A DNA stretch of 6,790 nucleotides from a virus (lineage: Duplodnaviria > Heunggongvirae > Uroviricota > Caudoviricetes). This document shows, piece after piece, positions 1 to 6,790 of the stretch. Under the pieces are notes generated by a model. That model was given only the letters and a program-made list of their open reading frames with translations. It was not told where the DNA came from and made no database searches. The stretch lies in the IMG/VR virus record IMGVR_UViG_3300015179_000038. One strand, 5' to 3'. The translations under genes and the position numbers were made by a program. Every line of letters starts with the position of its first letter. Position 1 is the stretch's first letter.

Positions 1-502
1 CATAATGTGCCAGGAGAACTTCGCCGCGCTGGCTTGCTCCCATCTGGTTAAGCGCCAGTGGTGCGGCGCTGTCTTCTGTTTTTTTCTTAACAGGAAGCTG
101 AATCACCAGACCATCAGAAAGATTCTGGCGCTCACGGGCCAGATATTCGCGCCAGTTCTGCACCTCCTGACCGTGCATACCCTCAGGATAAAAATTTGCA
201 TCCTGTACGCCTGCCGCCGCCAGCTTCTGACCAATCGCCTTTATCATTACTGGCGCAAGATATCCGGCCCTGAATATGCGCACGGATTTTCTGCCTTCCG
301 GCACAATTTGCAGCTTATCCAGTTCGGATAACTGCTGCTCCCCAAGCCACACAGGAGGCTCATTATCTCCGGCCATACGCGCGTCATGTTCCTGCCATTG
401 TTTTGCGTGTGACCAGGCATCACTACCCGCAAAAATAATGACTTCTGTTTCTTTGTGTTTTATGCCGCGTGACTGCTGTTTTACGTTCGGTGCCAGTTTC
501 AT
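1..502 (-). CDS. Hypothetical protein A, N-terminal 167 codons only (3' end lies beyond window start)
   Basis: ATG at 502-500 preceded by GGGGG Shine-Dalgarno (+ strand CCCCC 509-513), and overlapping the TGA stop of upstream gene B as ATGA. I re-translated the minus strand to position 2 and found no stop (MKLAPNVKQQSRGIKHKETEVIIFAGSDAWSH...GEVLLAHY). Absent from the supplied track because it has no in-window stop. Function not assignable by eye. Confidence 0.6.
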   Translation of the reverse strand, partial: MKLAPNVKQQSRGIKHKETEVIIFAGSDAWSHAKQWQEHDARMAGDNEPPVWLGEQQLSELDKLQIVPEGRKSVRIFRAGYLAPVMIKAIGQKLAAAGVQDANFYPEGMHGQEVQNWREYLARERQNLSDGLVIQLPVKKKTEDSAAPLALNQMGASQRGEVLLAHY

Positions 503-786
503 TTTTTACCCCCTGCGACCAGCATTTCACGAATTTTGCGGATATGACTTGCTGCACGTTTCTGATTTACGGCTTTACGATGGCCCACCAGCGTGAAATC
601 ACGCCGGAACTGATAAACAGGCATCACGCAGTCATATTCGTAGCCATCACGGCGGTAAGTGATGCGCCGTTCTGCCACGCCTTTTATCGTTACCGTGCCG
701 CCATAGTTATCCCGGAAAATATCGCCGGGGCGGATTTCAGGCCGAGCGGGGCCGCTGGCAGTAAAGCCAGAATTTTTCTTTTTCAT
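499..786 (-). CDS. Hypothetical small protein B (95 aa)
   Basis: Track ORF. ATG at 786-784 with GGAG about 10 nt upstream; E. coli-like codon usage (CTG, GGC, CGC); stop overlaps the start of gene A. No recognisable domain. Confidence 0.6.
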   Translation of the reverse strand: MKKKNSGFTASGPARPEIRPGDIFRDNYGGTVTIKGVAERRITYRRDGYEYDCVMPVYQFRRDFTLVGHRKAVNQKRAASHIRKIREMLVAGGKK

Positions 787-792
787 GTTTTT

Positions 793-999
793 TTACTCCA
801 GAGGCAGCTTTTTAGCGGCGAGCTCAATATCAGATGTCAGAGAAACCTGTGTATTTGCCAGGTCTAACAACAAAGAAATAAGAATTTCTTCTCTGCTATC
901 GGATTTATCGGTGCTAAGGCTGTTCATCCACATATTGACGACTTCCCTGATTTTTTTTCGCAGAGTGCAGGGCTTCAAATGCCAGGTCTTCAATATCAT
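793..999 (-). CDS. Hypothetical small protein orf68 (68 aa)
   Basis: Track ORF filling the gap between C and B in the same orientation. Its ATG lies 2 nt after the stop of C, and its last codons (CTG GAG TAA) supply the SD for B. Weak own SD, so it depends on translational coupling. Confidence 0.4.
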   Translation of the reverse strand: MILKTWHLKPCTLRKKIREVVNMWMNSLSTDKSDSREEILISLLLDLANTQVSLTSDIELAAKKLPLE

Positions 1000-1001
1000 G
1001 T

Positions 1002-1214
1002 TTATTTCGCATAATCGCCCCCGCGTAGCTGGTCTGCACTAACACCCGATTTAGTGAGCATTTCAGAAAATCCCGCAAGAGTGCTGATAAATTCGTTTTC
1101 CATTAAACGGCACTGACATTTAACCCGGCCTTTTTCCAGATACACCAGTACGCGCCCCGTATAATCTGACGGCACATTCAGCACTACAGGTAAGTGCGAT
1201 TCATGATTATGCAT
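1002..1214 (-). CDS. Hypothetical small protein C (70 aa), paralog of D
   Basis: Track ORF. ATG 1214-1212 preceded by GGGGGTGAG SD inside the 3' end of D; overlaps the D stop by 8 nt. Gap-free alignment with D from residue 19 gives about 13/40 identities (TG-LV--KGRV-C--L). Confidence 0.6.
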   Translation of the reverse strand: MHNHESHLPVVLNVPSDYTGRVLVYLEKGRVKCQCRLMENEFISTLAGFSEMLTKSGVSADQLRGGDYAK

Positions 1215-1416
1215 GTCTCACCCCCTGAATATTCGCATTAATCATTCCGGCACGTTCTGCGAGTTCCTGTAATGATTCCCTTGTTGCGACAATGGCTTCA
1301 TCTGGCAGGTGGTAATTACACACCACGCGACCTTTATCCACATTGACCAGTAGCTGCCCGGTAAATTTCTCACGAAACTGAACGCGGTTAAGGTCGGTAA
1401 GTGACAGGTTAATCAT
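1207..1416 (-). CDS. Hypothetical small protein D (69 aa), paralog of C
   Basis: Track ORF. ATG 1416-1414 preceded by AGGGGGAA SD; start overlaps the TAA stop of E (ATGATTAA). Shares the TGxxLV..KGRVxC core with C. Confidence 0.65.
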   Translation of the reverse strand: MINLSLTDLNRVQFREKFTGQLLVNVDKGRVVCNYHLPDEAIVATRESLQELAERAGMINANIQGVRHA

Positions 1417-1612
1417 GGTGTTCCCCCTGGCGAATACGGGCAGCGAATACCATCACGCAGCCATCAGGAGATTGCTGACGCGCTTCCTGTTCGCTGGTAG
1501 CCTCAATGGTAATCACGCGCGGTTGTGCCGTGCTCAGGGCGATAAAACGCCAGATGTATTTATTCAGGTTGTACGAGTCCCGCCCTTGCGGGTGTCTGGT
1601 ATAATTTCTCAT
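1409..1612 (-). CDS. Hypothetical small protein E (67 aa), first gene of the minus-strand operon
   Basis: In-frame ATG at 1612-1610 inside the 373-aa track ORF, preceded by GAGGT SD at 5-nt spacing. Translation MRNYTRHPQGRDSYNLNKYIWRFIALSTAQPRVITIEATSEQEARQQSPDGCVMVFAARIRQGEHHD looks protein-like, unlike the Cys/Arg/Ser-rich upstream part of that ORF. Confidence 0.5.
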   Translation of the reverse strand: MRNYTRHPQGRDSYNLNKYIWRFIALSTAQPRVITIEATSEQEARQQSPDGCVMVFAARIRQGEHHD

Positions 1613-1708
1613 AGCTACCTCGATACGCTTTCTATCGTTGGTGGTTAGAAGCCCGGTTAGTGTTAGCGCACTGCCGGGTTTCGTCGTTTCTGCACCTTGC
1701 ATCAGTAA

Positions 1709-1763
1709 GGTGTTGAACACCAATTTAAGCTCTGGTGTTAAACACGTCAAGTGTTGAACACTT
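1709..1763. promoter_or_regulatory. Divergent promoter region with three palindromic operator-like sites GTGTT(G/A)AACAC
   Basis: Sites at 1709-1721 (GGTGTTGAACACC), 1734-1745 (GGTGTTAAACAC) and 1749-1763 (AAGTGTTGAACACTT). Candidate + promoter: -35 TTGAAC 1754-1759, -10 CATACT 1777-1782, leading to the ORF at 1812. Candidate - promoter: -35 TTGACG at 1750..1745, -10 TTAAAT at 1728..1723, leading to gene E. The palindromes overlap both. Confidence 0.5.
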
Positions 1764-1811
1764 ATTTTTTTTCCTGCATACTGCATTTGTTTTTTGTAAG
1801 GGGTACACAAC

Positions 1812-1991
1812 ATGGCAACAAAAGCAGTAAACGCAAAATCACAAACAGTTGCGGCAAGGGTTCCGCATGAAGTTATGAACAATGTTGAGGCGGTAAAAAT
1901 GCCTGGTGAAAGTACAGGGCAGTTTGTAACAGCAGCATTAAAGCGAGAAGTTGAATACCGCCAGCGTCGCAAGGCCAAAGAGCAGGAATAA
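1812..1991 (+). CDS. Small ribbon-helix-helix (Arc/CopG-like) DNA-binding protein candidate, 59 aa
   Basis: Not in the supplied track (too short). ATG 1812 with AAGGGG SD 8 nt upstream; TAA at 1989-1991. MATKAVNAKSQTVAARVPHEVMNNVEAVKMPGESTGQFVTAALKREVEYRQRRKAKEQE fits a beta-strand/helix/G-x-S/helix RHH pattern (compare P22 Arc) by eye. Confidence 0.5.
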   Translation: MATKAVNAKSQTVAARVPHEVMNNVEAVKMPGESTGQFVTAALKREVEYRQRRKAKEQE

Positions 1992-2048
1992 CCATCACCA
2001 GCGCCGTGGTGTAAGGTATTACGGCGCATTGCTATGCAGGACAACACA

Positions 2049-2222
2049 ATGACCGATAAAGAATTGACCAAAACATTATCACCGACACGGAAAAGACGGC
2101 GCAGAAAGATAGAGCATGAATCAGAAAGATTCGCGCCATGTGCTTTTGCCCTTGAGCAATTCCTTAAAGAGTACAGGGAAAAGCGCTCATTGCAGGTATG
2201 GCAACGAACTGAACCAGACTGA
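2049..2222 (+). CDS. Hypothetical small basic protein (57 aa from second ATG; track calls 2034)
   Basis: Track ORF 2034-2222. ATG at 2049 has AGGA about 7 nt upstream; ATG at 2034 has none. Highly basic (RKRRRRK); followed by an intrinsic terminator. Weak support. Confidence 0.3.
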   Translation: MTDKELTKTLSPTRKRRRRKIEHESERFAPCAFALEQFLKEYREKRSLQVWQRTEPD

Positions 2223-2288
2223 TTGCATTGCCCACCAGCCGCAAATGTGGCATTGTTGGTGATGCTTTTGTTTTCCCTTGTTCCCACT

Positions 2289-2318
2289 GGCGACCCTTTT
2301 GCGGTCGCCTTTGTTTTG
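2289..2318 (+). terminator. Rho-independent terminator (stem GGCGACC/GGTCGCC, loop CTTTTGC, T-tract)
   Basis: Perfect 7-bp GC-rich stem 2289-2295/2303-2309 followed by TTTGTTTTG. Downstream of the + strand small ORFs. Confidence 0.6.
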
Positions 2319-2413
2319 CTTGTTATCCGGCAATAGTGGCGCTTCACCACACGGTTGATATAATTCCCCTGCACTGATCCATTTTTTTCGCAGCAGGTTA
2401 ATTGTTCAGAAAG

Positions 2414-2441
2414 GCGGTTCCTTATCGGGGCCGCTTTTTTT
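2414..2441 (+). terminator. Rho-independent terminator (8-bp stem with 2 G-U pairs, then TTTTTTT)
   Basis: GCGGTTCC 2414-2421, loop TTATC, GGGGCCGC 2427-2434, T7 run 2435-2441. No T-run on the opposite strand. Confidence 0.6.
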
Positions 2442-2582
2442 ATGCCTGAAAATACCCGATAACATGGCTTTTTAGTTTCACCAGGACGAACGAAGCCCCG
2501 CCCCTGTTCGGGCGTATATCCAGTATTCATGGTTAGATCTCTGTGTTAGTGGATGGGTGGCGGCGGTGCGCCGCCAGCCTGA

Positions 2583-2771
2583 TTAGTGAACTGCCTCGCG
2601 GCTGTCCTTCCATGCCAGAACTTCGGATAAAGACCAGCCAACGGAACGACCGCCGAGTTTACGCCGTGATGGGAATTGTCCGGTCTTCTCCAGGCGATAC
2701 CGACATGAGCGGCTCAGGCCTGTAAGTTGCTGACATTCTTTTTCACGTATAAAGCGATCTGTGCTTAACAC
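2583..2771 (-). CDS. alpA: AlpA/Vis-family phage transcriptional regulator / excisionase-like protein (62 aa)
   Basis: Track ORF; GTG start at 2771 with AAAGGGGG SD. FIREKECQQLTGLSRSCRYRLEKTGQFPSRRKLGGRSVGWSLSEVLAWK matches the AlpA (Phage_AlpA, MerR-like HTH) pattern L-G-S-R-STIYR-GxFP-K-G-R-W-E-W. Same strand as and downstream of int, as in CP4-57 and PICI-type elements. Confidence 0.85.
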   Translation of the reverse strand: MLSTDRFIREKECQQLTGLSRSCRYRLEKTGQFPSRRKLGGRSVGWSLSEVLAWKDSREAVH

Positions 2772-2934
2772 AATTCCCCCTTTGTTGTTTCTTAAAGAGT
2801 CATTGGGTGGGTTATTGGGTTGGGTTGTGTCTGATTGTGTCAGGATGATTCAGAGTTGGCAAATGTTGAGTCCGTATGGTTTACAGAAAGAGGAACAATC
2901 AGGATAAAATCATTTAAATTCATATTAATACAAA

Positions 2935-2963
2935 GGCATAAAATCTCGTTTTATGCCTTTTTT
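2935..2963. terminator. Hairpin with flanking T-runs (potentially bidirectional) between int and alpA
   Basis: Perfect 9-bp stem GGCATAAAA/TTTTATGCC with loop TCTCG, followed on + by TTTTTT and on - by TTTGTATT. Plausibly ends the int transcript before the alpA promoter region. Confidence 0.45.
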
Positions 2964-3054
2964 CTCACGCGTTAAAGCGTTATTCGCTAATGTATAAAAA
3001 ACCAGTCATACAAATAAAATCAGTCACTTATAAACCTGTGTACTTTTTCGCCTC

Positions 3055-3104
3055 TTGTTCGTGGTTGTTCCACGTTGTTTCACATTGTTCGCCGTTGTAT
3101 CTGT
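3055..3104. repeat. Five phased 10-bp direct repeats, consensus TTGTTC-NNNN (iteron-like)
   Basis: TTGTTCGTGG, TTGTTCCACG, TTGTTTCACA, TTGTTCGCCG, TTGTATCTGT at exactly 10-bp register, 43 bp 3' of the int stop. Confidence 0.6.
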
Positions 3105-3146
3105 GTGCTTATCCAGTATGCGCATACTGAAAAAACACGAAAAAAA

Positions 3147-4394
3147 TTATTTTCTTCTGGCTGCTGGTAGTGCGGTTACGTTTTCATGTGCTCCCGCCAG
3201 TATCCCTAACCGCTCCGTCCACATATCCAGCGCATTGCGTTTCGCATCCAGATAACGGGAGTGATTATAGACTCGTTGCATCCCTGGCATCTGGTGTCCT
3301 GTAAGCTGCTCCACGACATGCGGATCAACGCCTAAATCGTTCAGCATGGTTGTAAAGGTGCGCCGGATGTCATGCAGTGACCAGTGGGGGTGATTAAGCC
3401 TCCTGTGCGCTAATCTTCCATACTGCGATACGCTGGCCTCCTGTTTCACTTCCCCCAGCAATAAGCCCGTGTGCCTGTTCTGCTCCACCAGCTGCGTGAT
3501 GAACGGCAGTATTGCTTCCGGTATAGGCCGGAATATGGCTACCTTCGTTTTGCTGTGCTCCTTCGGAACGGTCCAGAGCATTTCGGTAAAATCCCACTCG
3601 CCGATCTCCGATAACCTAAGTTCGACCGTCCGGCATCCGAACACAATCAGGAGGCGGATTAGCGCGATGTAGTAGGGGGAAAATATTTTTTTGTCCAGTG
3701 CCTGCAATAATTCGCCCAGCTCTTTATTGCTTAAGACTCGTTCGCTTATATCCGGTTTTTTCCCAACGTCCGCTACGTTCAGATCATCGAGAACGTTACT
3801 GATTGCATAGCGCCGCCTCCGGCAGTACTTAAGCGCCTGTTTGCATGTCTGTAGCACGAATCCGGCAGTAACAGGTGTTCGCTTTGCCACCTGGTCAAAG
3901 CAGGCCAGCCAGTGCCGTAGCTCGCATTTATCCAGCGGCATAGCACCAATTTTGGTGATTATGTTTTTATTGATCCGGCTTTTCAGTGATTCGTAATCTG
4001 TGCGCTTTTCCTTTGCGTACGACTCAAGCCAATAGGTGAGCGCATCGCCAACCGTTACAGGCTTTAACGCTTCCTGCATGGTGTAATTCAGTTCATAGCG
4101 TGGATTTTTCCCCTCAGCCAGCCATGCGCGACACTGGGCGGCTTTTTCCCTGGCTGCTTTCAGACTCAGATCGGGATAATTTCCCAGCTTAACGCGTTCA
4201 GGTTGTGTCCCTCTTCCCATTCCGGCCCTGTATGTGAAATACCAGGTTAAAAGGCCGCTGGTTGAATGCCTGACGCTCAGGTTTCCACCGTCATTAAGAA
4301 AGGCTGTTTTTTGGACGGGTGTGCCGTTGATTTTCCTTAGTTGTGTGTCACTCAGTTTGTTAAGTGCTCTGCTCATAATTTTGATTCCGGTCAT
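3147..4394 (-). CDS. int: P4-family tyrosine integrase (site-specific recombinase)
   Basis: Track ORF 3147-4397 (GTG); ATG at 4394 or 4376 (MSRALNKLSD) is more likely. N-terminus LSDTQLRK...FLNDGGNLSV...WYFTYR fits the P4-type arm-binding domain; C-terminus has the box II HDIRRT ... LTGH ... RVYNHSRY tyrosine-recombinase motif with the catalytic Arg region GCRTVELRL. Confidence 0.9.
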   Translation of the reverse strand: MTGIKIMSRALNKLSDTQLRKINGTPVQKTAFLNDGGNLSVRHSTSGLLTWYFTYRAGMGRGTQPERVKLGNYPDLSLKAAREKAAQCRAWLAEGKNPRYELNYTMQEALKPVTVGDALTYWLESYAKEKRTDYESLKSRINKNIITKIGAMPLDKCELRHWLACFDQVAKRTPVTAGFVLQTCKQALKYCRRRRYAISNVLDDLNVADVGKKPDISERVLSNKELGELLQALDKKIFSPYYIALIRLLIVFGCRTVELRLSEIGEWDFTEMLWTVPKEHSKTKVAIFRPIPEAILPFITQLVEQNRHTGLLLGEVKQEASVSQYGRLAHRRLNHPHWSLHDIRRTFTTMLNDLGVDPHVVEQLTGHQMPGMQRVYNHSRYLDAKRNALDMWTERLGILAGAHENVTALPAARRK

Positions 4395-4398
4395 CACA

Positions 4399-4527
4399 AT
4401 TAACTACACCATTAACTACACCGATCGTTGCACAAAGGGCTACAACGTGAAACAAGCTGAAACAAGGAAAATTAAAAATCCGTTGAAAATCAAAAACATA
4501 ACGAACAACCTGAAACATTGTGAAACA
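4399..4527. repeat. Putative att / integrase arm-site region: tandem 12-mer ATTAACTACACC x2 plus phased TGAAACA repeats
   Basis: ATTAACTACACC at 4399-4410 and 4411-4422. TGAAACA at 4448, 4458, 4511 and 4521 (two pairs at 10-bp spacing), with degenerate copies at 4484 and 4502. Lies between the int 5' end and the allE start. Confidence 0.5.
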
Positions 4528-4548
4528 GTAAAAAACACTATTTGATAA

Positions 4549-5334
4549 AAGGGATATTTAAATAACGTCACCGGTTACCGCGATGATTTACTGGCTAACC
4601 GTGCGATTGTTAAACACGGTAATTTCGCACTGTTAACACCAGACGGTCTGGTAAAAAATATTATTCCGGGCTTTGAAAATTGTGACGCGACAATCCTCTC
4701 CACGCCAAAGCTGGGTGCCTCTTTTGTTGATTATCTGGTCACACTGCATCAAAACGGTGGCAACCAACAGGGCTTCGGTGGCGAAGGCATTGAAACGTTC
4801 CTGTATGTGATCTCTGGAAATATCACTGCCAAAGCCGAAGGCAAAACATTTGCCTTAAGCGAAGGTGGCTATCTTTATTGCCCGCCAGGCTCCTTAATGA
4901 CGTTTGTTAACGCCCATGCCGAAGACAGCCAAATCTTTTTATATAAGCGCCGCTATGTTCCAATAGAAGGCCATGCACCGTGGCTGGTTTCTGGCAATGC
5001 CAGCGAACTGGAACGCATTCATTATGAAGGCATGGACGATGTTATTCTGCTGGATTTTCTGCCCAAAGAGTTAGGTTTTGATATGAACATGCATATCCTC
5101 TCTTTTGCACCAGGTGCCAGCCACGGTTATATCGAAACACACGTTCAGGAACACGGTGCCTATATTCTTTCCGGTCAGGGGGTTTATAACCTCGACAATA
5201 ACTGGATCCCGGTGAAAAAAGGCGATTACATCTTTATGGGCGCTTATTCTTTACAGGCTGGTTATGGTGTAGGGCGTGGTGAAGCGTTCAGCTATATTTA
5301 CTCGAAAGATTGTAACCGCGACGTAGAGATTTAA
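4549..5334 (+). CDS. allE: (S)-ureidoglycine aminohydrolase (cupin; YlbA/AllE); frame lacks a canonical start codon here
   Basis: The track ORF starts at GTG 4807, but the frame is open and protein-like from 4549 (KGYLNNVTGYREDLLANRAIVKHGNFALL...), giving 261 codons to TAA 5332-5334, which matches the length I recall for E. coli AllE. Codon 4549-4551 is AAG, preceded by TGA TAA. Confidence 0.75.
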   Translation, partial: KGYLNNVTGYRDDLLANRAIVKHGNFALLTPDGLVKNIIPGFENCDATILSTPKLGASFVDYLVTLHQNGGNQQGFGGEGIETFLYVISGNITAKAEGKTFALSEGGYLYCPPGSLMTFVNAHAEDSQIFLYKRRYVPIEGHAPWLVSGNASELERIHYEGMDDVILLDFLPKELGFDMNMHILSFAPGASHGYIETHVQEHGAYILSGQGVYNLDNNWIPVKKGDYIFMGAYSLQAGYGVGRGEAFSYIYSKDCNRDVEI

Positions 5335-5376
5335 GTCATACCACTCGCCTGATTATTTTTAGCTATGTTGGATTTT

Positions 5377-5403
5377 GCCACGGTTTATACCGTGGCTTTT
5401 TTT
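5377..5403 (+). terminator. Rho-independent terminator of allE
   Basis: Stem GCCACGG/CCGTGGC with loop TTTATA followed by TTTTTTT (5397-5403), 43 nt after the allE stop. Confidence 0.7.
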
Positions 5404-5410
5404 GTAACAT

Positions 5411-5516
5411 TGCCTGATGCGCTTCGCTTATCAGGCCTACATGATCTCTGCAATATATAGAATTTGCGCGATTTTCAGGAAGGATATGGTACTCATGCCG
5501 CATCCGGCATGAGTAC
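5411..5516. repeat. REP-like palindromic units in the allE-glxK convergent intergenic region
   Basis: GCCTGATGCG...CTTATCAGGCCTAC (5412-5440) is the classical REP signature. A second perfect 12-bp-stem hairpin GTACTCATGCCG-CATC-CGGCATGAGTAC (5489-5516) contains a REP-like GCCGCATCCGGC core; a small GCGAT-ATAA-ATCGC hairpin follows at 5528-5541. Confidence 0.6.
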
Positions 5517-5561
5517 TGCACTCTTATGCGATATAAATCGCATCCGCTTTAAAGGTAAGGG

Positions 5562-6707
5562 TCAGTTTTTAATTCCCTGACCTATTTTAATGGCGCAGGC
5601 AATATTTCGCGCGCTGTTGAAGAGATTGGTTTCACCGCTGGCGAGCACTTCGGCTAAAGGTGCCAGACGAGGCAAAATGCTGAATACCGCGTCAATGCCG
5701 TACTGGTGCACCACTTCCACGCCATCACCCAATACGCCAGCAATCCCAATCACCGGTACATTAAACTGCTTCGCCACCGACGCCACACCCAGCGGCGCTT
5801 TACCGCCTGCCGTTTGCGAGTCGATGCGCCCTTCCCCGGTAATCACCAGTGCTGCGCCCTGCACTGCCTGCGCAAGATTGACCGCATTCAACACAATCTC
5901 AATACCTGGTTTAATATCCGCATTGAGAAATACCGCCGCCGCAATACCCATACCGCCCGCAGCGCCGCCGCCCGCCATCTGGCAGACGTTGATTTCAGTT
6001 TGCTGTTGTAAAACACGGGCGTAATTTTGCAGCCCCTGTTCCAGCTCTTCGACCATTTCCGGCGTTGCCCCTTTTTGCGGGCCAAACACCGCCGCCGCGC
6101 CGCGTGCCCCTACCAGCGGGTTATCAACGTCACATGCTACTTCAATATGGCAATTCGCCAGACGCGGATCGCATTCATCCATCTCAATGCTTGCCACGCG
6201 CGCTAAATTACCGCCGTTAGCCACCAGCACCTGACCGTCGGCATCAAGGAAACGCACACCGAGCGCCTGCGCCATGCCCATACCGCCGTCGACCGTCGCA
6301 CTGCCGCCAATGCCGAGAATAATATGGCGAATGCCGTTATCCAGCGCATGACGAATTAACTCCCCCGTACCAAAACTGGAGGCCAGCAACGGATTACGCT
6401 TTTCAGGCGCGACCAGCATCAGGCCACTTGCTGCCGCCATCTCAATCACCGCCGTTTTCCCGTCGCCGGTAAGGCCATAAAAAGCATTCACTTTTTCGCC
6501 CATCGGCCCGCAGACTTCAAGCGTCACGATGTTGCCGCCCGTCGCGGCGACCATCGCATCCACCGTCCCTTCGCCGCCATCCGCTATCGGCAAACAGATA
6601 TAGTTCGCATCGGGAAAGAGGGTCGAAAACCCGGCTTTAATTGCCTGACAACATTTTTCTGCACTTAAGCTCTCTTTAAAAGAGTCTGGCGCAATGACAA
6701 TCTTCAT
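5562..6707 (-). CDS. glxK: Glycerate kinase II (glycerate 2-kinase, allantoin/glyoxylate pathway)
   Basis: The track ORF (383 aa) starts at TTG 6713; the likely start is ATG 6707 ([27 protein letters not shown]...) with AAGGA SD, giving 381 aa. Full-length glycerate kinase family protein, recognised as E. coli GlxK. TGA stop at 5564-5562. Confidence 0.93.
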
Positions 6708-6758
6708 TATCAATCCTTTTTCAACAAATTATTCGATGCGTTCCCACGGAATAAGATT

Positions 6759-6790
6759 AGATCGGAAGAGCACACGTCTGAACTCCAGTC
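6759..6790. other. Illumina TruSeq adapter sequence (technical artefact at contig end)
   Basis: AGATCGGAAGAGCACACGTCTGAACTCCAGTC is the standard TruSeq read-1 3' adapter. Genomic sequence ends at 6758. Confidence 0.95.

What the first reader, a model, noticed from the sequence alone, without database searches (positions are those of the whole stretch)
1700..1811. Three-operator palindrome cluster in a back-to-back divergent promoter (genetic-switch architecture)
Three copies of GTGTT(G/A)AACAC (centres 1715, 1740, 1756; spacing 25 and 16 bp) overlap the -35/-10 elements of two divergent candidate promoters, one reading into the RHH-like ORF (+) and one into the six-gene operon (-). This resembles an autoregulated repressor/operator switch controlling the element's cargo operon. 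It is not the RNA-based immunity system described for P4 itself.
Basis: seen in the sequence. Interest (0 to 1): 0.6.

Follow-up and report, generated by a model that had tools for sequence, protein, structure and literature searches.

The report
Satellite repressor switch with matched operators
Three copies of an 11-base site sit on two back-to-back promoters next to a tiny DNA-binding-protein gene in an E. coli phage satellite, and in about 50 relatives the protein's predicted DNA-reading residues and the sites change together, which points to an undescribed repressor lock on the satellite's replication genes.

Summary
GTGTT(G/A)AACAC occurs at 1710-1720, 1735-1745 and 1751-1761, far above chance.

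The element is a capsid-forming phage-inducible chromosomal island (PICI), not P4. The sites lie on a leftward promoter (TTGACG-17-TAAATT) that reads into the Icd-like/DUF4222/primase operon. They also lie on a rightward promoter that reads into a 59-aa YlcI/YnfO-family gene.

In about 50 related loci from many enterobacterial genera the architecture is conserved and the general site is GGTG-N5-CAC(C). The 5-bp core is the same at the 2-3 sites of one element but differs between elements. It tracks residues 12 and 14 of the small protein in a one-to-one way, giving 11 residue-pair classes. Three natural chimeras follow the N-terminal half. AlpA, the Icd-like protein and the replication proteins do not co-vary with the core.

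A conserved SymR-like antisense RNA (1613-1690) adds a second lock. Nothing here is shown by experiment.

The parts
1709..1721 (.). Operator O1, GGTGTTGAACACC. It lies immediately downstream of the -10 of the leftward promoter, over the predicted start site.
   Evidence: The equivalent site in relatives lies 98-112 bp before the ylcI-like ATG.
1734..1745 (.). Operator O2, GGTGTTAAACAC. It fills the spacer between the -35 and -10 of the leftward promoter.
   Evidence: It lies 76-78 bp before the ATG in 42 of the 49 related loci scored (the other 7 failed the automatic O2 call) and is always followed by (G/T)TCAA.
1751..1761 (.). Operator O3w, GTGTTGAACAC. It overlaps the -35 (TTGAAC) of the rightward promoter and looks like a duplicate of the 16-bp unit 'operator + GTCAA'.
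   Evidence: The same extra copy occurs in Klebsiella loci L059 and L060, and the unit is triplicated in L059. The usual site 32 bp before the ATG is absent here.
1722..1750 (-). Leftward promoter P_L: -35 TTGACG (1750-1745), 17-bp spacer, -10 TAAATT (1727-1722). It reads into the Icd-like operon.
   Evidence: Scan hit with 9 of 12 matches. TTGAC and TAAnnT are conserved at fixed spacing in 48 distinct relatives.
1754..1782 (+). Rightward promoter P_R: -35 TTGAAC (1754-1759), 17 bp, -10 CATACT (1777-1782). It reads into the ylcI-like gene.
   Evidence: Read from the sequence. The -10 position matches the conserved TATACT of relatives. It is below the scan's threshold.
1812..1991 (+). 59-aa YlcI/YnfO-family protein, the predicted ribbon-helix-helix repressor. 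The predicted beta-strand is residues 11-17 and the specificity residues are T12 and A14.
2034..2222 (+). 62-aa ORF downstream of the ylcI-like gene, probably co-transcribed. It is conserved in EcCICFT073 and in the O157 island. Function unknown.
   Evidence: phrog_21027. No Pfam or NCBIfam hit.
2289..2319 (+). Intrinsic-terminator-like hairpin plus T-run that closes the rightward ylcI-ORF62 unit.
   Evidence: GGCGACCCTTTTGCGGTCGCC followed by TTTGTTTTGC.
1613..1690 (+). SymR-like cis-antisense small RNA. It is complementary to the leader and ribosome-binding site of the Icd-like gene. It has two hairpins plus a terminator and ends about 18 nt before O1.
   Evidence: Rfam SymR, 32.8 bits, E 0.0026, below the gathering score of 61. 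In 48 loci 97.4% of cells are paired, 15 of 23 pairs show compensatory changes, and 0 of 500 shuffles reach this. Pairing is 97.4% on the + strand and 85.9% on the - strand. The model built from these loci finds K-12 symR at 29.1 bits, E 5e-6. Folding z-score -5.2.
1597..1605 (+). Candidate extended -10 (TGGTATAAT) for the antisense RNA, inside the Icd-like ORF. The predicted start is near 1612-1613.
   Evidence: Read from the sequence. TATAAT or TATGAT is conserved in E. coli relatives. Inferred, not mapped.
1409..1612 (-). Icd-like protein (67 aa), the first gene of the leftward operon.
   Evidence: NCBIfam NF033153, 70.4 bits. It is nearly invariant across loci whose operators differ.
2..1416 (-). 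The rest of the leftward operon inside the window. It comprises two paralogous small ORFs (1207-1416, 1002-1214), a small ORF (793-999), DUF4222 (499-786) and the N-terminus of the primase (2-502). Starts and stops overlap or abut.
   Evidence: It continues into the primase, SSB, capsid and terminase genes in L001.
2583..2771 (-). alpA (Phage_AlpA), the published activator of Gram-negative PICIs. It lies upstream of the operon, is co-oriented with it, and is convergent with the ylcI-like gene.
   Evidence: Pfam PF05930, E 2.7e-18. Role in EcCICFT073 from PMC6092414. It does not co-vary with the operators.
3147..4397 (-). Tyrosine integrase of the island.
   Evidence: Pfam Arm-DNA-bind_3 and Phage_integrase.

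Best explanation
The window carries the left end of a capsid-forming PICI. The 59-aa YlcI/YnfO-family protein is inferred to be a ribbon-helix-helix dimer that reads the 11-13-bp sites GGTG-N5-CAC(C).

The conserved residues (K9, S10, R16) are proposed to hold the conserved GGTG/CACC arms. Residues 12 and 14 on the DNA-facing side of the beta-strand are proposed to read the variable 5-bp core.

In the window, one dimer on O2 (in the spacer of P_L) and one on O1 (at its start site) would block the leftward promoter. That promoter drives the Icd-like, DUF4222 and primase operon, so the island's replication and early genes stay silent. A dimer on O3w (on the -35 of P_R) would limit the repressor's own synthesis, which is negative autoregulation.

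A second, independent lock is a constitutively made SymR-like antisense RNA. It would pair with the leader and ribosome-binding site of any leftward transcript that escapes.

Release presumably comes from the helper-induced AlpA pathway. AlpA-driven transcription from upstream runs into the operon and runs against ylcI transcription. This last step is speculation.

What is shown: the sites, their positions on conserved promoter hexamers, covariation with the protein, and the covarying RNA structure. What is inferred: binding, repression, autoregulation, the RNA's start site and the route of derepression.
For: 1. Sites and promoters. There are three exact copies against 0.23 expected. P_L is found by the scan. 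In 48 distinct relatives TTGAC, 17 bp and TAAnnT are conserved, O2 fills the spacer, O1 lies at or after the start site, and a site lies at +1 of the conserved TATACT -10 of P_R.

2. Concerted cores. Within a locus the 5-bp cores of the sites differ by a mean of 0.32. Between loci with the same residues at positions 12 and 14 they differ by 0.15 (n=152). Between loci with different residues they differ by 3.13 (n=838). Eleven residue pairs map to their own cores, and the mapping holds across genera. For example, Q/N goes with AATCG in both E. coli O157 and Xenorhabdus.

3. Natural chimeras. P0027 combines an S/T-class N-terminal half with a C-terminal half identical to the window's, and it has TAAGA operators. 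P0032 shares its C-terminal half with the TTGAA-class L007 but has a K/D strand and TCAGA operators. P0033 has a T/A strand with a different helix B and has TTGAA/TTAAA operators.

4. Other candidate binders fail. AlpA is 92-97% identical in the window, L003 and L054, yet their operators differ. The Icd-like protein is nearly invariant. The same operator class occurs with a DUF927 replication protein and with a D5-type primase.

6. The slot. In L063 and L065 a different small Arc/HicB-like protein sits in the same divergent position with its own inverted repeats.

7. The module occurs in EcCICFT073 and in the O157 island. [quoted passage not shown]
Against: - There is no binding or expression data.
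- The gene and its sites are adjacent and inherited together, so the covariation is partly confounded by linkage. All protein segments correlate with operator distance, and helix B (r 0.79) correlates as well as the strand (r 0.74). Only the chimeras and the within-locus concerted cores break this confounding.
- Sequence-level membership of ribbon-helix-helix families is not significant. No Pfam hit reaches threshold. hhalign against Arc gives probability 5%. Foldseek and the PDB sequence searches find nothing.
- The promoter-scan count is no higher than in shuffles (2 against 2.2), and CATACT is a weak -10.
- Published work shows that AlpA alone induces EcCICFT073 and that alpA is required. 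This protein therefore cannot be the sole gate.
Confidence: 0.75

Rival explanations
1. The sites are binding sites for AlpA, the known activator of Gram-negative PICIs, which would switch the leftward operon on from here.
For: AlpA activates EcCICFT073 genes downstream of alpA and is required for induction (PMC6092414). alpA lies about 800 bp upstream.
Against: Near-identical AlpA proteins (92-97% identity) are paired with three different operator classes. Similar operators are paired with AlpA proteins that are only 26% identical. Sites inside the spacer and at +1 are repressor positions, not activator positions.
Confidence: 0.04
2. The repeats are iterons of a replication origin bound by the island's primase or replication protein.
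For: Short repeated motifs near a replication module are typical of origins. P4's alpha protein binds a TGTTCACC octamer (my own knowledge).
Against: The same operator class (TGGCC) occurs with DUF927 replication proteins (L004, L064) and with a D5-type primase (CFT073). The published PICI origin lies downstream of pri-rep (PMC10111431). The sites sit in register with promoter hexamers.
Confidence: 0.03
3. The YlcI-like protein does bind the sites, but it is not a repressor of the leftward operon. It could be an activator, or a factor with another role such as excision or partition.
For: No expression data exist. Some ribbon-helix-helix proteins activate a divergent promoter, for example Mnt at Pmnt (my own knowledge). 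In relatives P_R has a poor -35.
Against: O2 occupies the P_L spacer and O1 its start site. In nearly all relatives O3 covers +1 of P_R. All three are positions that occlude RNA polymerase.
Confidence: 0.08
4. Another protein reads the sites, and the ylcI-like gene merely hitch-hikes. Candidates are ORF62, the Icd-like protein (which PHROGs labels as a transcriptional repressor), or a host or helper-phage factor.
For: The Icd-like protein matches phrog_6196 and phrog_1743, both annotated as transcriptional repressors. ORF62 is basic and conserved in CFT073 and O157.
Against: The Icd-like protein is nearly invariant while the operators change. ORF62 is identical in CFT073 and O157, which have different operator classes, and no such gene is annotated downstream of ylcI in L002-L005. 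A host factor cannot explain 11 or more class-specific cores. The chimeras follow the N-terminal half of YlcI.
Confidence: 0.06
5. The repeats are a non-functional relic or a chance cluster.
For: None beyond the small size of the motif.
Against: Zero of 200 shuffles reach the observed count. The architecture is conserved across many genera, and operator columns are better conserved than the other, non-operator columns of the region (0.93 against 0.74 and 0.82).
Confidence: 0.02

Closest known systems
Phage P22 immI region: Arc and Mnt repressors, the divergent promoters Pant and Pmnt, and the sar antisense RNA (my own knowledge of the literature)
   Same: Both have small ribbon-helix-helix repressors, operators that overlap two divergent promoters, autoregulation, and a small antisense RNA that covers the ribosome-binding region of the first downstream gene. 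hhalign aligns the R-x-P-x-E-V stretch of the 59-aa protein with the R13-P15 region of Arc.
   Different: Sequence similarity to Arc or Mnt is not significant. There is one repressor gene here instead of two. The controlled operon holds a satellite's replication genes, not an antirepressor. The operators form an allelic series of many specificities.
Phage P1/P7 immI: c4 antisense RNA, icd, ant (my own knowledge)
   Same: In both, an Icd-type gene is the first gene of the controlled unit and is held down by a small RNA that targets its ribosome-binding region.
   Different: The c4 RNA is processed from the same transcript and acts in trans on that transcript. Here the RNA is a true cis-antisense. 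Rfam C4 and isrK give no hit in the window at E up to 1. P1 has no ribbon-helix-helix operator cluster at this position.
Stl/Rpr master repressors of SaPIs and other Gram-positive PICIs (PMC6092414)
   Same: In both, a repressor gene is transcribed divergently from the island's main operon, with the control region between them. The proposed role is also the same, which is to keep the island quiescent.
   Different: By my own recollection Stl-type repressors are larger proteins of an unrelated fold; this was not tested here. Their release by helper-phage proteins is demonstrated, whereas nothing is known here. [quoted passage not shown]
Omega repressor (pSM19035) and CopG (pMV158), both ribbon-helix-helix (my own knowledge)
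   Different: The sites here are 11-13 bp units spaced 16-35 bp apart, not contiguous heptads. There is no detectable sequence homology.
SymE/SymR of E. coli K-12 (Rfam RF01809)
   Same: The geometry is the same. The antisense RNA starts at the start codon of the target gene and covers its leader. The covariance-model hits are reciprocal.
   Different: The score is below Rfam's gathering threshold (32.8 against 61). The target is an Icd-like gene or another first gene, not symE. The transcriptional lock is a ribbon-helix-helix protein rather than LexA (the LexA point is my own knowledge).
P4 immunity (CI RNA with seqA/seqC)
   Same: Both are control regions of satellites of enterobacterial phages, upstream of a primase operon.
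   Different: There is no C4/CI-type RNA and none of P4's late genes in the complete relative. The lock proposed here is a protein.

Membership tests
YlcI/YnfO family (NCBIfam NF041551) | Score above the curated cut-off of the family model | tested here: met
   59.7 bits against a cut-off of 30, E 2.1e-16, covering residues 9-50. RefSeq names the identical protein a YlcI/YnfO family protein.
Ribbon-helix-helix (Arc/MetJ/CopG) superfamily | N-terminal strand with alternating DNA-facing and core-facing residues, then helix A, a G-x-S/T/N turn, and helix B | tested here: met
   Positions 12 and 14 are variable and polar, positions 13, 15 and 17 are hydrophobic, and G32-E33-S34 is conserved (E33 in all 84 proteins, S34 in 83, G32 in 77). 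AF2 places helices at 19-28 and 35-58.
Ribbon-helix-helix (Arc/MetJ/CopG) superfamily | Fold similarity to solved ribbon-helix-helix proteins | tested here: inconclusive
Ribbon-helix-helix (Arc/MetJ/CopG) superfamily | Significant sequence or profile match to a ribbon-helix-helix family | tested here: not met
   No Pfam family reaches its cut-off. There are only weak hits to PSK_trans_fac and CB_ParB_C. hhalign against Arc gives probability 5%. The PDB sequence search finds nothing.
Ribbon-helix-helix (Arc/MetJ/CopG) superfamily | Dimer whose paired strands enter the major groove of the operator | not testable with these tools
   This needs a dimer-DNA model or an experiment.
Autoregulated repressor with operators at divergent promoters | Sites overlap the core elements of both promoters | tested here: met
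   O2 lies in the P_L spacer, O1 at the P_L start site and O3w on the P_R -35. The arrangement is conserved in 48 relatives.
Autoregulated repressor with operators at divergent promoters | Protein and sites co-vary, which would indicate specific recognition | tested here: met
   Eleven classes of residues 12/14 map to their own cores, and three chimeras follow the N-terminal half.
Autoregulated repressor with operators at divergent promoters | Binding and repression demonstrated | not testable with these tools
   No experimental data were found in the paper library.
Gram-negative PICI / capsid-forming PICI | int, alpA and a primase/replication gene co-oriented, about 15 kb in size, with its own capsid and packaging genes | tested here: met
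   The window has int, alpA and the primase N-terminus. Genome locus L001 is 99.6% identical and continues with SSB, HK97 capsid, protease, portal, HNH, TerS and TerL between allC and allE.
P4-like satellite | CI/C4-type immunity RNA and P4 late genes (sid, delta, psu) | tested here: not met
   There is no C4 or isrK hit at E up to 1. No such genes are annotated in L001.
SymR (Rfam RF01809) | Score at or above the gathering threshold | tested here: not met
   32.8 bits against 61. A related family is supported by the reciprocal hit on K-12 symR, 29.1 bits, E 5e-6.
Stl/Rpr master repressor of Gram-positive PICIs | Homology to Stl-type repressors and release by a helper-phage protein | not tested
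   No Stl or Rpr sequence was compared with the 59-aa protein. Only the divergent position is shared.

The most novel reading that the evidence does not exclude
The YlcI-like protein may be the missing 'global repressor' of Gram-negative PICIs, with a SymR-like antisense RNA as a second lock. On this reading its many operator and beta-strand alleles are immunity types. They would let co-resident satellites, or satellites facing different helper-encoded anti-repressors, be controlled independently. The series would also be a natural set of about a dozen orthogonal 59-aa repressor/operator pairs governed mainly by two residues.
Probability: 0.45. Interest if true: 0.75.

Novelty: new member of a known kind. 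Interest (0 to 1): 0.62.

Why it matters
[quoted passage not shown] I found no later paper in the library that changes this.

The module described here is present in the experimentally tractable prototype EcCICFT073 and in an O157:H7 island of the EcCIEDL933 type. The 401-bp region matches 1350 of 5426 complete E. coli genomes, 672 of them over at least 80% of its length. The question of how these satellites stay silent therefore becomes directly testable with one knockout and a few reporter fusions.

The allelic series would also assign a function to the uncharacterised YlcI/YnfO family. It offers a compact natural recognition code for ribbon-helix-helix proteins and a set of candidate orthogonal repressor/operator pairs. 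The link between SymR and a satellite leader RNA suggests where the K-12 symER locus came from.

Tried and rejected
- AlpA as the binder. Rejected because it does not co-vary with the operators.
- Iterons of the replication protein. Rejected because the same operator class occurs with different replication modules.
- The Icd-like protein as the binder, despite its PHROG label of transcriptional repressor. Rejected because it is nearly invariant.
- The 1-mismatch copy at the alpA start (2761-2771) as a fourth operator. Rejected because it is coding sequence (GTG TTA AGC AC, the first codons of alpA). The scans for each locus's own operator in seven other loci, including the same-class L007, L059 and L060, find sites only in the divergent intergenic region.
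- The 373-aa mechanical ORF 1409-2530 that runs antisense through the ylcI-like gene. Its translation does not look like a protein and I set it aside.
- Structure prediction with my own alignment A1.
- Foldseek against the PDB, and a PDB sequence search. Both were uninformative.
- hhalign against Arc, Mnt and the HicB-like protein of L063. The register was right but the scores were not significant.
- A Mantel-type correlation. It was significant for every protein segment, so it is uninformative about which part reads the DNA.
- tblastn of the 59-aa protein against 50,697 phage records. No match, so a helper-encoded homologue could not be proposed.
- Literature searches for YlcI/YnfO, PICI with ribbon-helix-helix, Icd-like with satellite, and SymR with PICI. 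Nothing relevant was found.

Full report
**1. What the window is**

The 6790-base window is an E. coli contig. It ends in an Illumina adapter.

- Positions 4560-6713 are chromosomal: allE on the + strand and glxK on the - strand.
- Positions 2-4557 are the left end of a mobile element. On the - strand it carries a tyrosine integrase (3147-4397), alpA (2583-2771, Pfam Phage_AlpA) and a run of overlapping small genes.
- That run comprises an Icd-like gene (1409-1612), two paralogous ORFs, one further ORF, DUF4222 (499-786) and the start of a primase.
- On the + strand it carries a 59-aa ORF (1812-1991) and a 62-aa ORF (2034-2222).

A 99.6%-identical stretch in a complete genome (L001) shows the whole island between allC and allE. 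After the primase come SSB, ProQ/FinO, HK97 capsid, protease, portal, connector, HNH, TerS and TerL. This is a capsid-forming PICI of the kind described for EcCIEDL933 (bioRxiv 10.1101/2022.09.08.507074). It is not a P4-type element. Rfam finds no C4 or isrK immunity RNA at E up to 1.

**2. The observation**

- With one mismatch allowed the window holds 5 matches against 0.23 expected, and no shuffle out of 200 reaches that.
- The two extra 1-mismatch matches lie in coding sequence, one at the alpA start and one in allE.
- In the complete island the exact sites occur only here.
- The promoter scan finds TTGACG(1750-1745)-17-TAAATT(1727-1722) on the - strand.
- TTGAAC(1754-1759)-17-CATACT(1777-1782) on the + strand is visible in the sequence but weaker.
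- O2 therefore fills the spacer of the leftward promoter, O1 lies just after its -10, and the third site lies on the -35 of the rightward promoter.

**3. Relatives**

The 401-bp region 1600-2000 matches 1350 of 5426 complete E. coli genomes, 672 of them over at least 80% of its length, at identities down to about 67%. The divergent gene pair, Icd-like and YlcI/YnfO-family, recurs with different integrases, AlpA types and replication proteins (D5-type primase, RepA helicase, DUF927).

A scan of one genome per species returned 47 more loci. They come from Pectobacterium, Yersinia, Xenorhabdus, Klebsiella, Kosakonia, Serratia, Hafnia and other genera.

The module is also present in the prototype PICI EcCICFT073 (NC_004431, 1380473-1380652) and in the O157:H7 capsid-forming island next to roxA. 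Those two islands share the same AlpA and integrase proteins.

**4. Architecture**

I anchored 48 distinct upstream regions on the ATG of the small gene. The consensus is GTG-N5-CAC, then (G/T)TCAA, then a T-rich stretch, then TATACT, then G-N5-CACC, then a Shine-Dalgarno sequence, then ATG.

- On the other strand, TTGAC and TAAnnT lie 17 bp apart with O2 between them.
- O1 lies 22-35 bp further on, at or just after the predicted start site.
- The site after TATACT covers +1 of the rightward promoter and lies 32 bp before the ATG in nearly all relatives.
- The window is unusual. That site is missing, and an extra copy of the 16-bp unit 'operator + GTCAA' supplies both a third site and a -35-like TTGAAC.
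- Klebsiella loci of the same class carry both kinds of site, and one has the unit in triplicate.

**5. Who reads the sites**

The arms GGTG/CAC(C) are conserved, but the 5-bp core differs from island to island. Within an island the cores of the two or three sites are nearly identical, with a mean difference of 0.32 of 5. This is not expected of neutral DNA.

Across islands the core follows residues 12 and 14 of the small protein:

| Residues 12 / 14 | Core |
|---|---|
| T / A | TTGAA |
| M / T | TATTT |
| S / T | TAAGA |
| A or S / K | TGGCC |
| K or R / E | TCAGC |
| R / D | TCGGA |
| K / D | TCAGA |
| K / Q | GACTC |
| K / H | GAACA |
| Q / N | AATCG |

- Two longer YnfO-like variants, from Klebsiella and Serratia, carry their own repeated sites, read by eye and not scored.
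- Loci with the same residue pair differ by 0.15 in the core (n=152).
- Loci with a different pair differ by 3.13 (n=838).
- The pairing holds across genera. O157:H7 and a Xenorhabdus locus both have Q/N and AATCG.

Because the gene and its sites are adjacent, linkage alone produces correlation. Every segment of the protein does correlate with operator distance. Three natural chimeras break the linkage, and in each the operators follow the N-terminal half.

- One has the S/T-class N-terminal half joined to a C-terminal half identical to the window's, and it carries TAAGA operators.
- One shares its C-terminal half with a TTGAA-class protein but has a K/D strand, and it carries TCAGA operators.
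- One has the T/A strand with a different helix B, and it carries TTGAA operators.

The other candidates do not fit.

- AlpA proteins that are 92-97% identical sit with three different operator classes.
- The Icd-like protein is nearly invariant.
- The TGGCC class occurs with two unrelated replication proteins.
- ORF62 is identical in CFT073 and O157, whose operators differ.

**6. The protein**

It belongs to NCBIfam YlcI/YnfO, a family for which I found no described function.

- In 84 distinct sequences K9, S10, R16, H19, G32, E33, S34 and F38 are invariant or nearly so.
- Positions 12 and 14 are the most variable and are polar. Positions 13, 15 and 17 are hydrophobic. This is the i, i+2 pattern of a strand with one face on DNA.
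- AF2 (pLDDT 81) gives helices at 19-28 and 35-58 joined by the G-E-S turn, and a poorly defined N-terminus. That is what one expects when a ribbon-helix-helix protein is modelled without its partner.
- hhalign aligns R16-V17-P18-H19-E20-V21 with R13-W14-P15-R16-E17-V18 of Arc, but without significance.
- Pfam, Foldseek and the PDB sequence search give nothing.

The ribbon-helix-helix assignment is therefore well motivated but not proven.

In two E. coli islands that lack this gene, a different Arc/HicB-like small protein occupies the same divergent slot with its own inverted repeats. In one of them the gene is unannotated. The slot, then, is a repressor slot.

The protein has no relative in 50,697 phage records.

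**7. A second layer**

Between O1 and the Icd-like start codon lies a conserved structured RNA on the + strand.

- Rfam's SymR model matches 1613-1685 over its full length at 32.8 bits, below the gathering score of 61.
- In 48 loci a three-helix structure has 97.4% of cells paired. Fifteen of 23 pairs show compensatory changes. No shuffle out of 500 reaches this, and slid controls give 36-48% paired.
- Pairing is better on the + strand (97.4%) than on the - strand (85.9%) because of 129 G-U cells.
- The window's sequence folds with a z-score of -5.2.
- A covariance model built from these loci finds the annotated symR of K-12 at 29.1 bits, E 5e-6.
- An extended -10, TGGTATAAT (1597-1605), inside the Icd-like ORF would start the RNA at the start codon. 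By my own recollection of the SymR literature this matches where SymR starts relative to symE.
- The RNA is conserved even where the first leftward gene is not Icd-like.

**8. How it most likely works**

Shown:
- the sites;
- their register with conserved promoter hexamers;
- their concerted, protein-matched cores;
- the covarying antisense RNA.

Inferred:
- dimers of the 59-aa protein on O1 and O2 shut the leftward promoter;
- a dimer on the third site limits the protein's own promoter;
- the antisense RNA blocks translation of, or destabilises, any leftward transcript.

This double lock suits an operon that opens with a putative division inhibitor and leads into replication genes.

Published work shows that AlpA is required and sufficient for induction of EcCICFT073 and is switched on by the helper phage. 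The repressor is therefore more likely a lock on basal expression than the trigger. One possibility, untested, is that AlpA-driven transcription from upstream reads into the operon and collides with transcription of the convergent ylcI-like gene.

**9. Comparison and novelty**

The closest system I know is the immI region of P22. It has Arc and Mnt (both ribbon-helix-helix), divergent promoters and the sar antisense RNA. P1's c4-icd-ant region is a second parallel. Both comparisons rest on my own knowledge.

By position, the module mirrors the Stl/Rpr repressor of Gram-positive PICIs.

The mechanism is of a known kind. What is new is the assignment to the YlcI/YnfO family, the allelic series of specificities, and its place in Gram-negative PICIs. 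For those islands the literature I could search describes one-directional transcription and no repressor.

Noticed in passing
window 1597-1692 (+); K-12 symR at L066 2336-2412: A conserved SymR-like cis-antisense RNA lies opposite the leader and ribosome-binding site of the first leftward gene. Covariation is strong in 48 loci. There are reciprocal covariance-model hits with K-12 symR, although the score is below Rfam's gathering threshold. This suggests that symR is related to a satellite leader RNA.
   Followed up: yes
window 4551-4557; L001 1719-1727: The island is inserted inside the first codons of allE. The shared core GGGATAT is found at both junctions. The allE body is cut off from its ATG, its Shine-Dalgarno sequence and the allDC operon. 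RefSeq annotates a shortened allE.
   Followed up: partly
L063 3111-3347; L065 3108-3345: Two E. coli islands with the same Icd-like leader lack the ylcI-like gene. In the same divergent slot they carry a different small Arc/HicB-like protein with its own inverted repeats (GTGTGTACCTAT/ATAGGTACACAC and AGGTGGTCACCTA/TAGGTGGTCAC). In L065 the gene is not annotated.
   Followed up: partly
window 2034-2222 (+): A 62-aa basic ORF (with a KRRRRK stretch) lies downstream of the ylcI-like gene and before a good terminator (2289-2319). A near-identical, slightly shorter protein (57 aa, 2 substitutions) is annotated in EcCICFT073 and the O157 island. It matches phrog_21027. Function unknown.
   Followed up: partly
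L059 1383-1480; L060 1399-1480: In Klebsiella pneumoniae relatives of the same operator class, the 16-bp unit 'GTGTTAAACAC+GTCAA' is tandemly duplicated or triplicated, giving 4-5 sites. The window's third site looks like one such duplication.
   Followed up: partly
window 4399-4422; L001 about 1810-1835: A tandem 12-mer, ATTAACTACACC x2, lies next to int and again at the other end of the island. Repeated (T)GAAACA motifs occur at 4447-4470 and 4510-4528, and GTTTCAC-like motifs at 3060-3090. These are possibly arm-type integrase sites.
   Followed up: no
window 1002-1416 (-): Two adjacent small ORFs (69 and 70 aa) both match phrog_340, so they are a tandem duplication. The closest genome (L001) has three small ORFs where the window has four. 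The window is therefore a mosaic in this stretch.
   Followed up: no
window 1409-1612 (-): PHROGs labels the families matched by the Icd-like protein (phrog_6196 and phrog_1743) as transcriptional repressors, whereas NCBI calls it a host cell division inhibitor Icd-like protein. The two annotations conflict.
   Followed up: no
window 1992-2582; L002 3388-3856: RefSeq annotates a pseudogene ('hypothetical' or 'icd-like protein, incomplete') on the - strand between the ylcI-like gene and alpA. In the window a mechanical 373-aa ORF (1409-2530) runs through this stretch and antisense to ylcI. I did not work out what this region does.
   Followed up: no
window 5341-5475 (-): Rfam hits above the gathering score to STnc480 (5341-5407, 87.6 bits) and ES036 (5433-5475, 38.1 bits) lie in the allE-glxK intergenic region.
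   Followed up: no
window 6759-6790: The contig ends in Illumina adapter sequence (AGATCGGAAGAGCACACGTCTGAACTCCAGTC). This is an assembly artefact.
   Followed up: no
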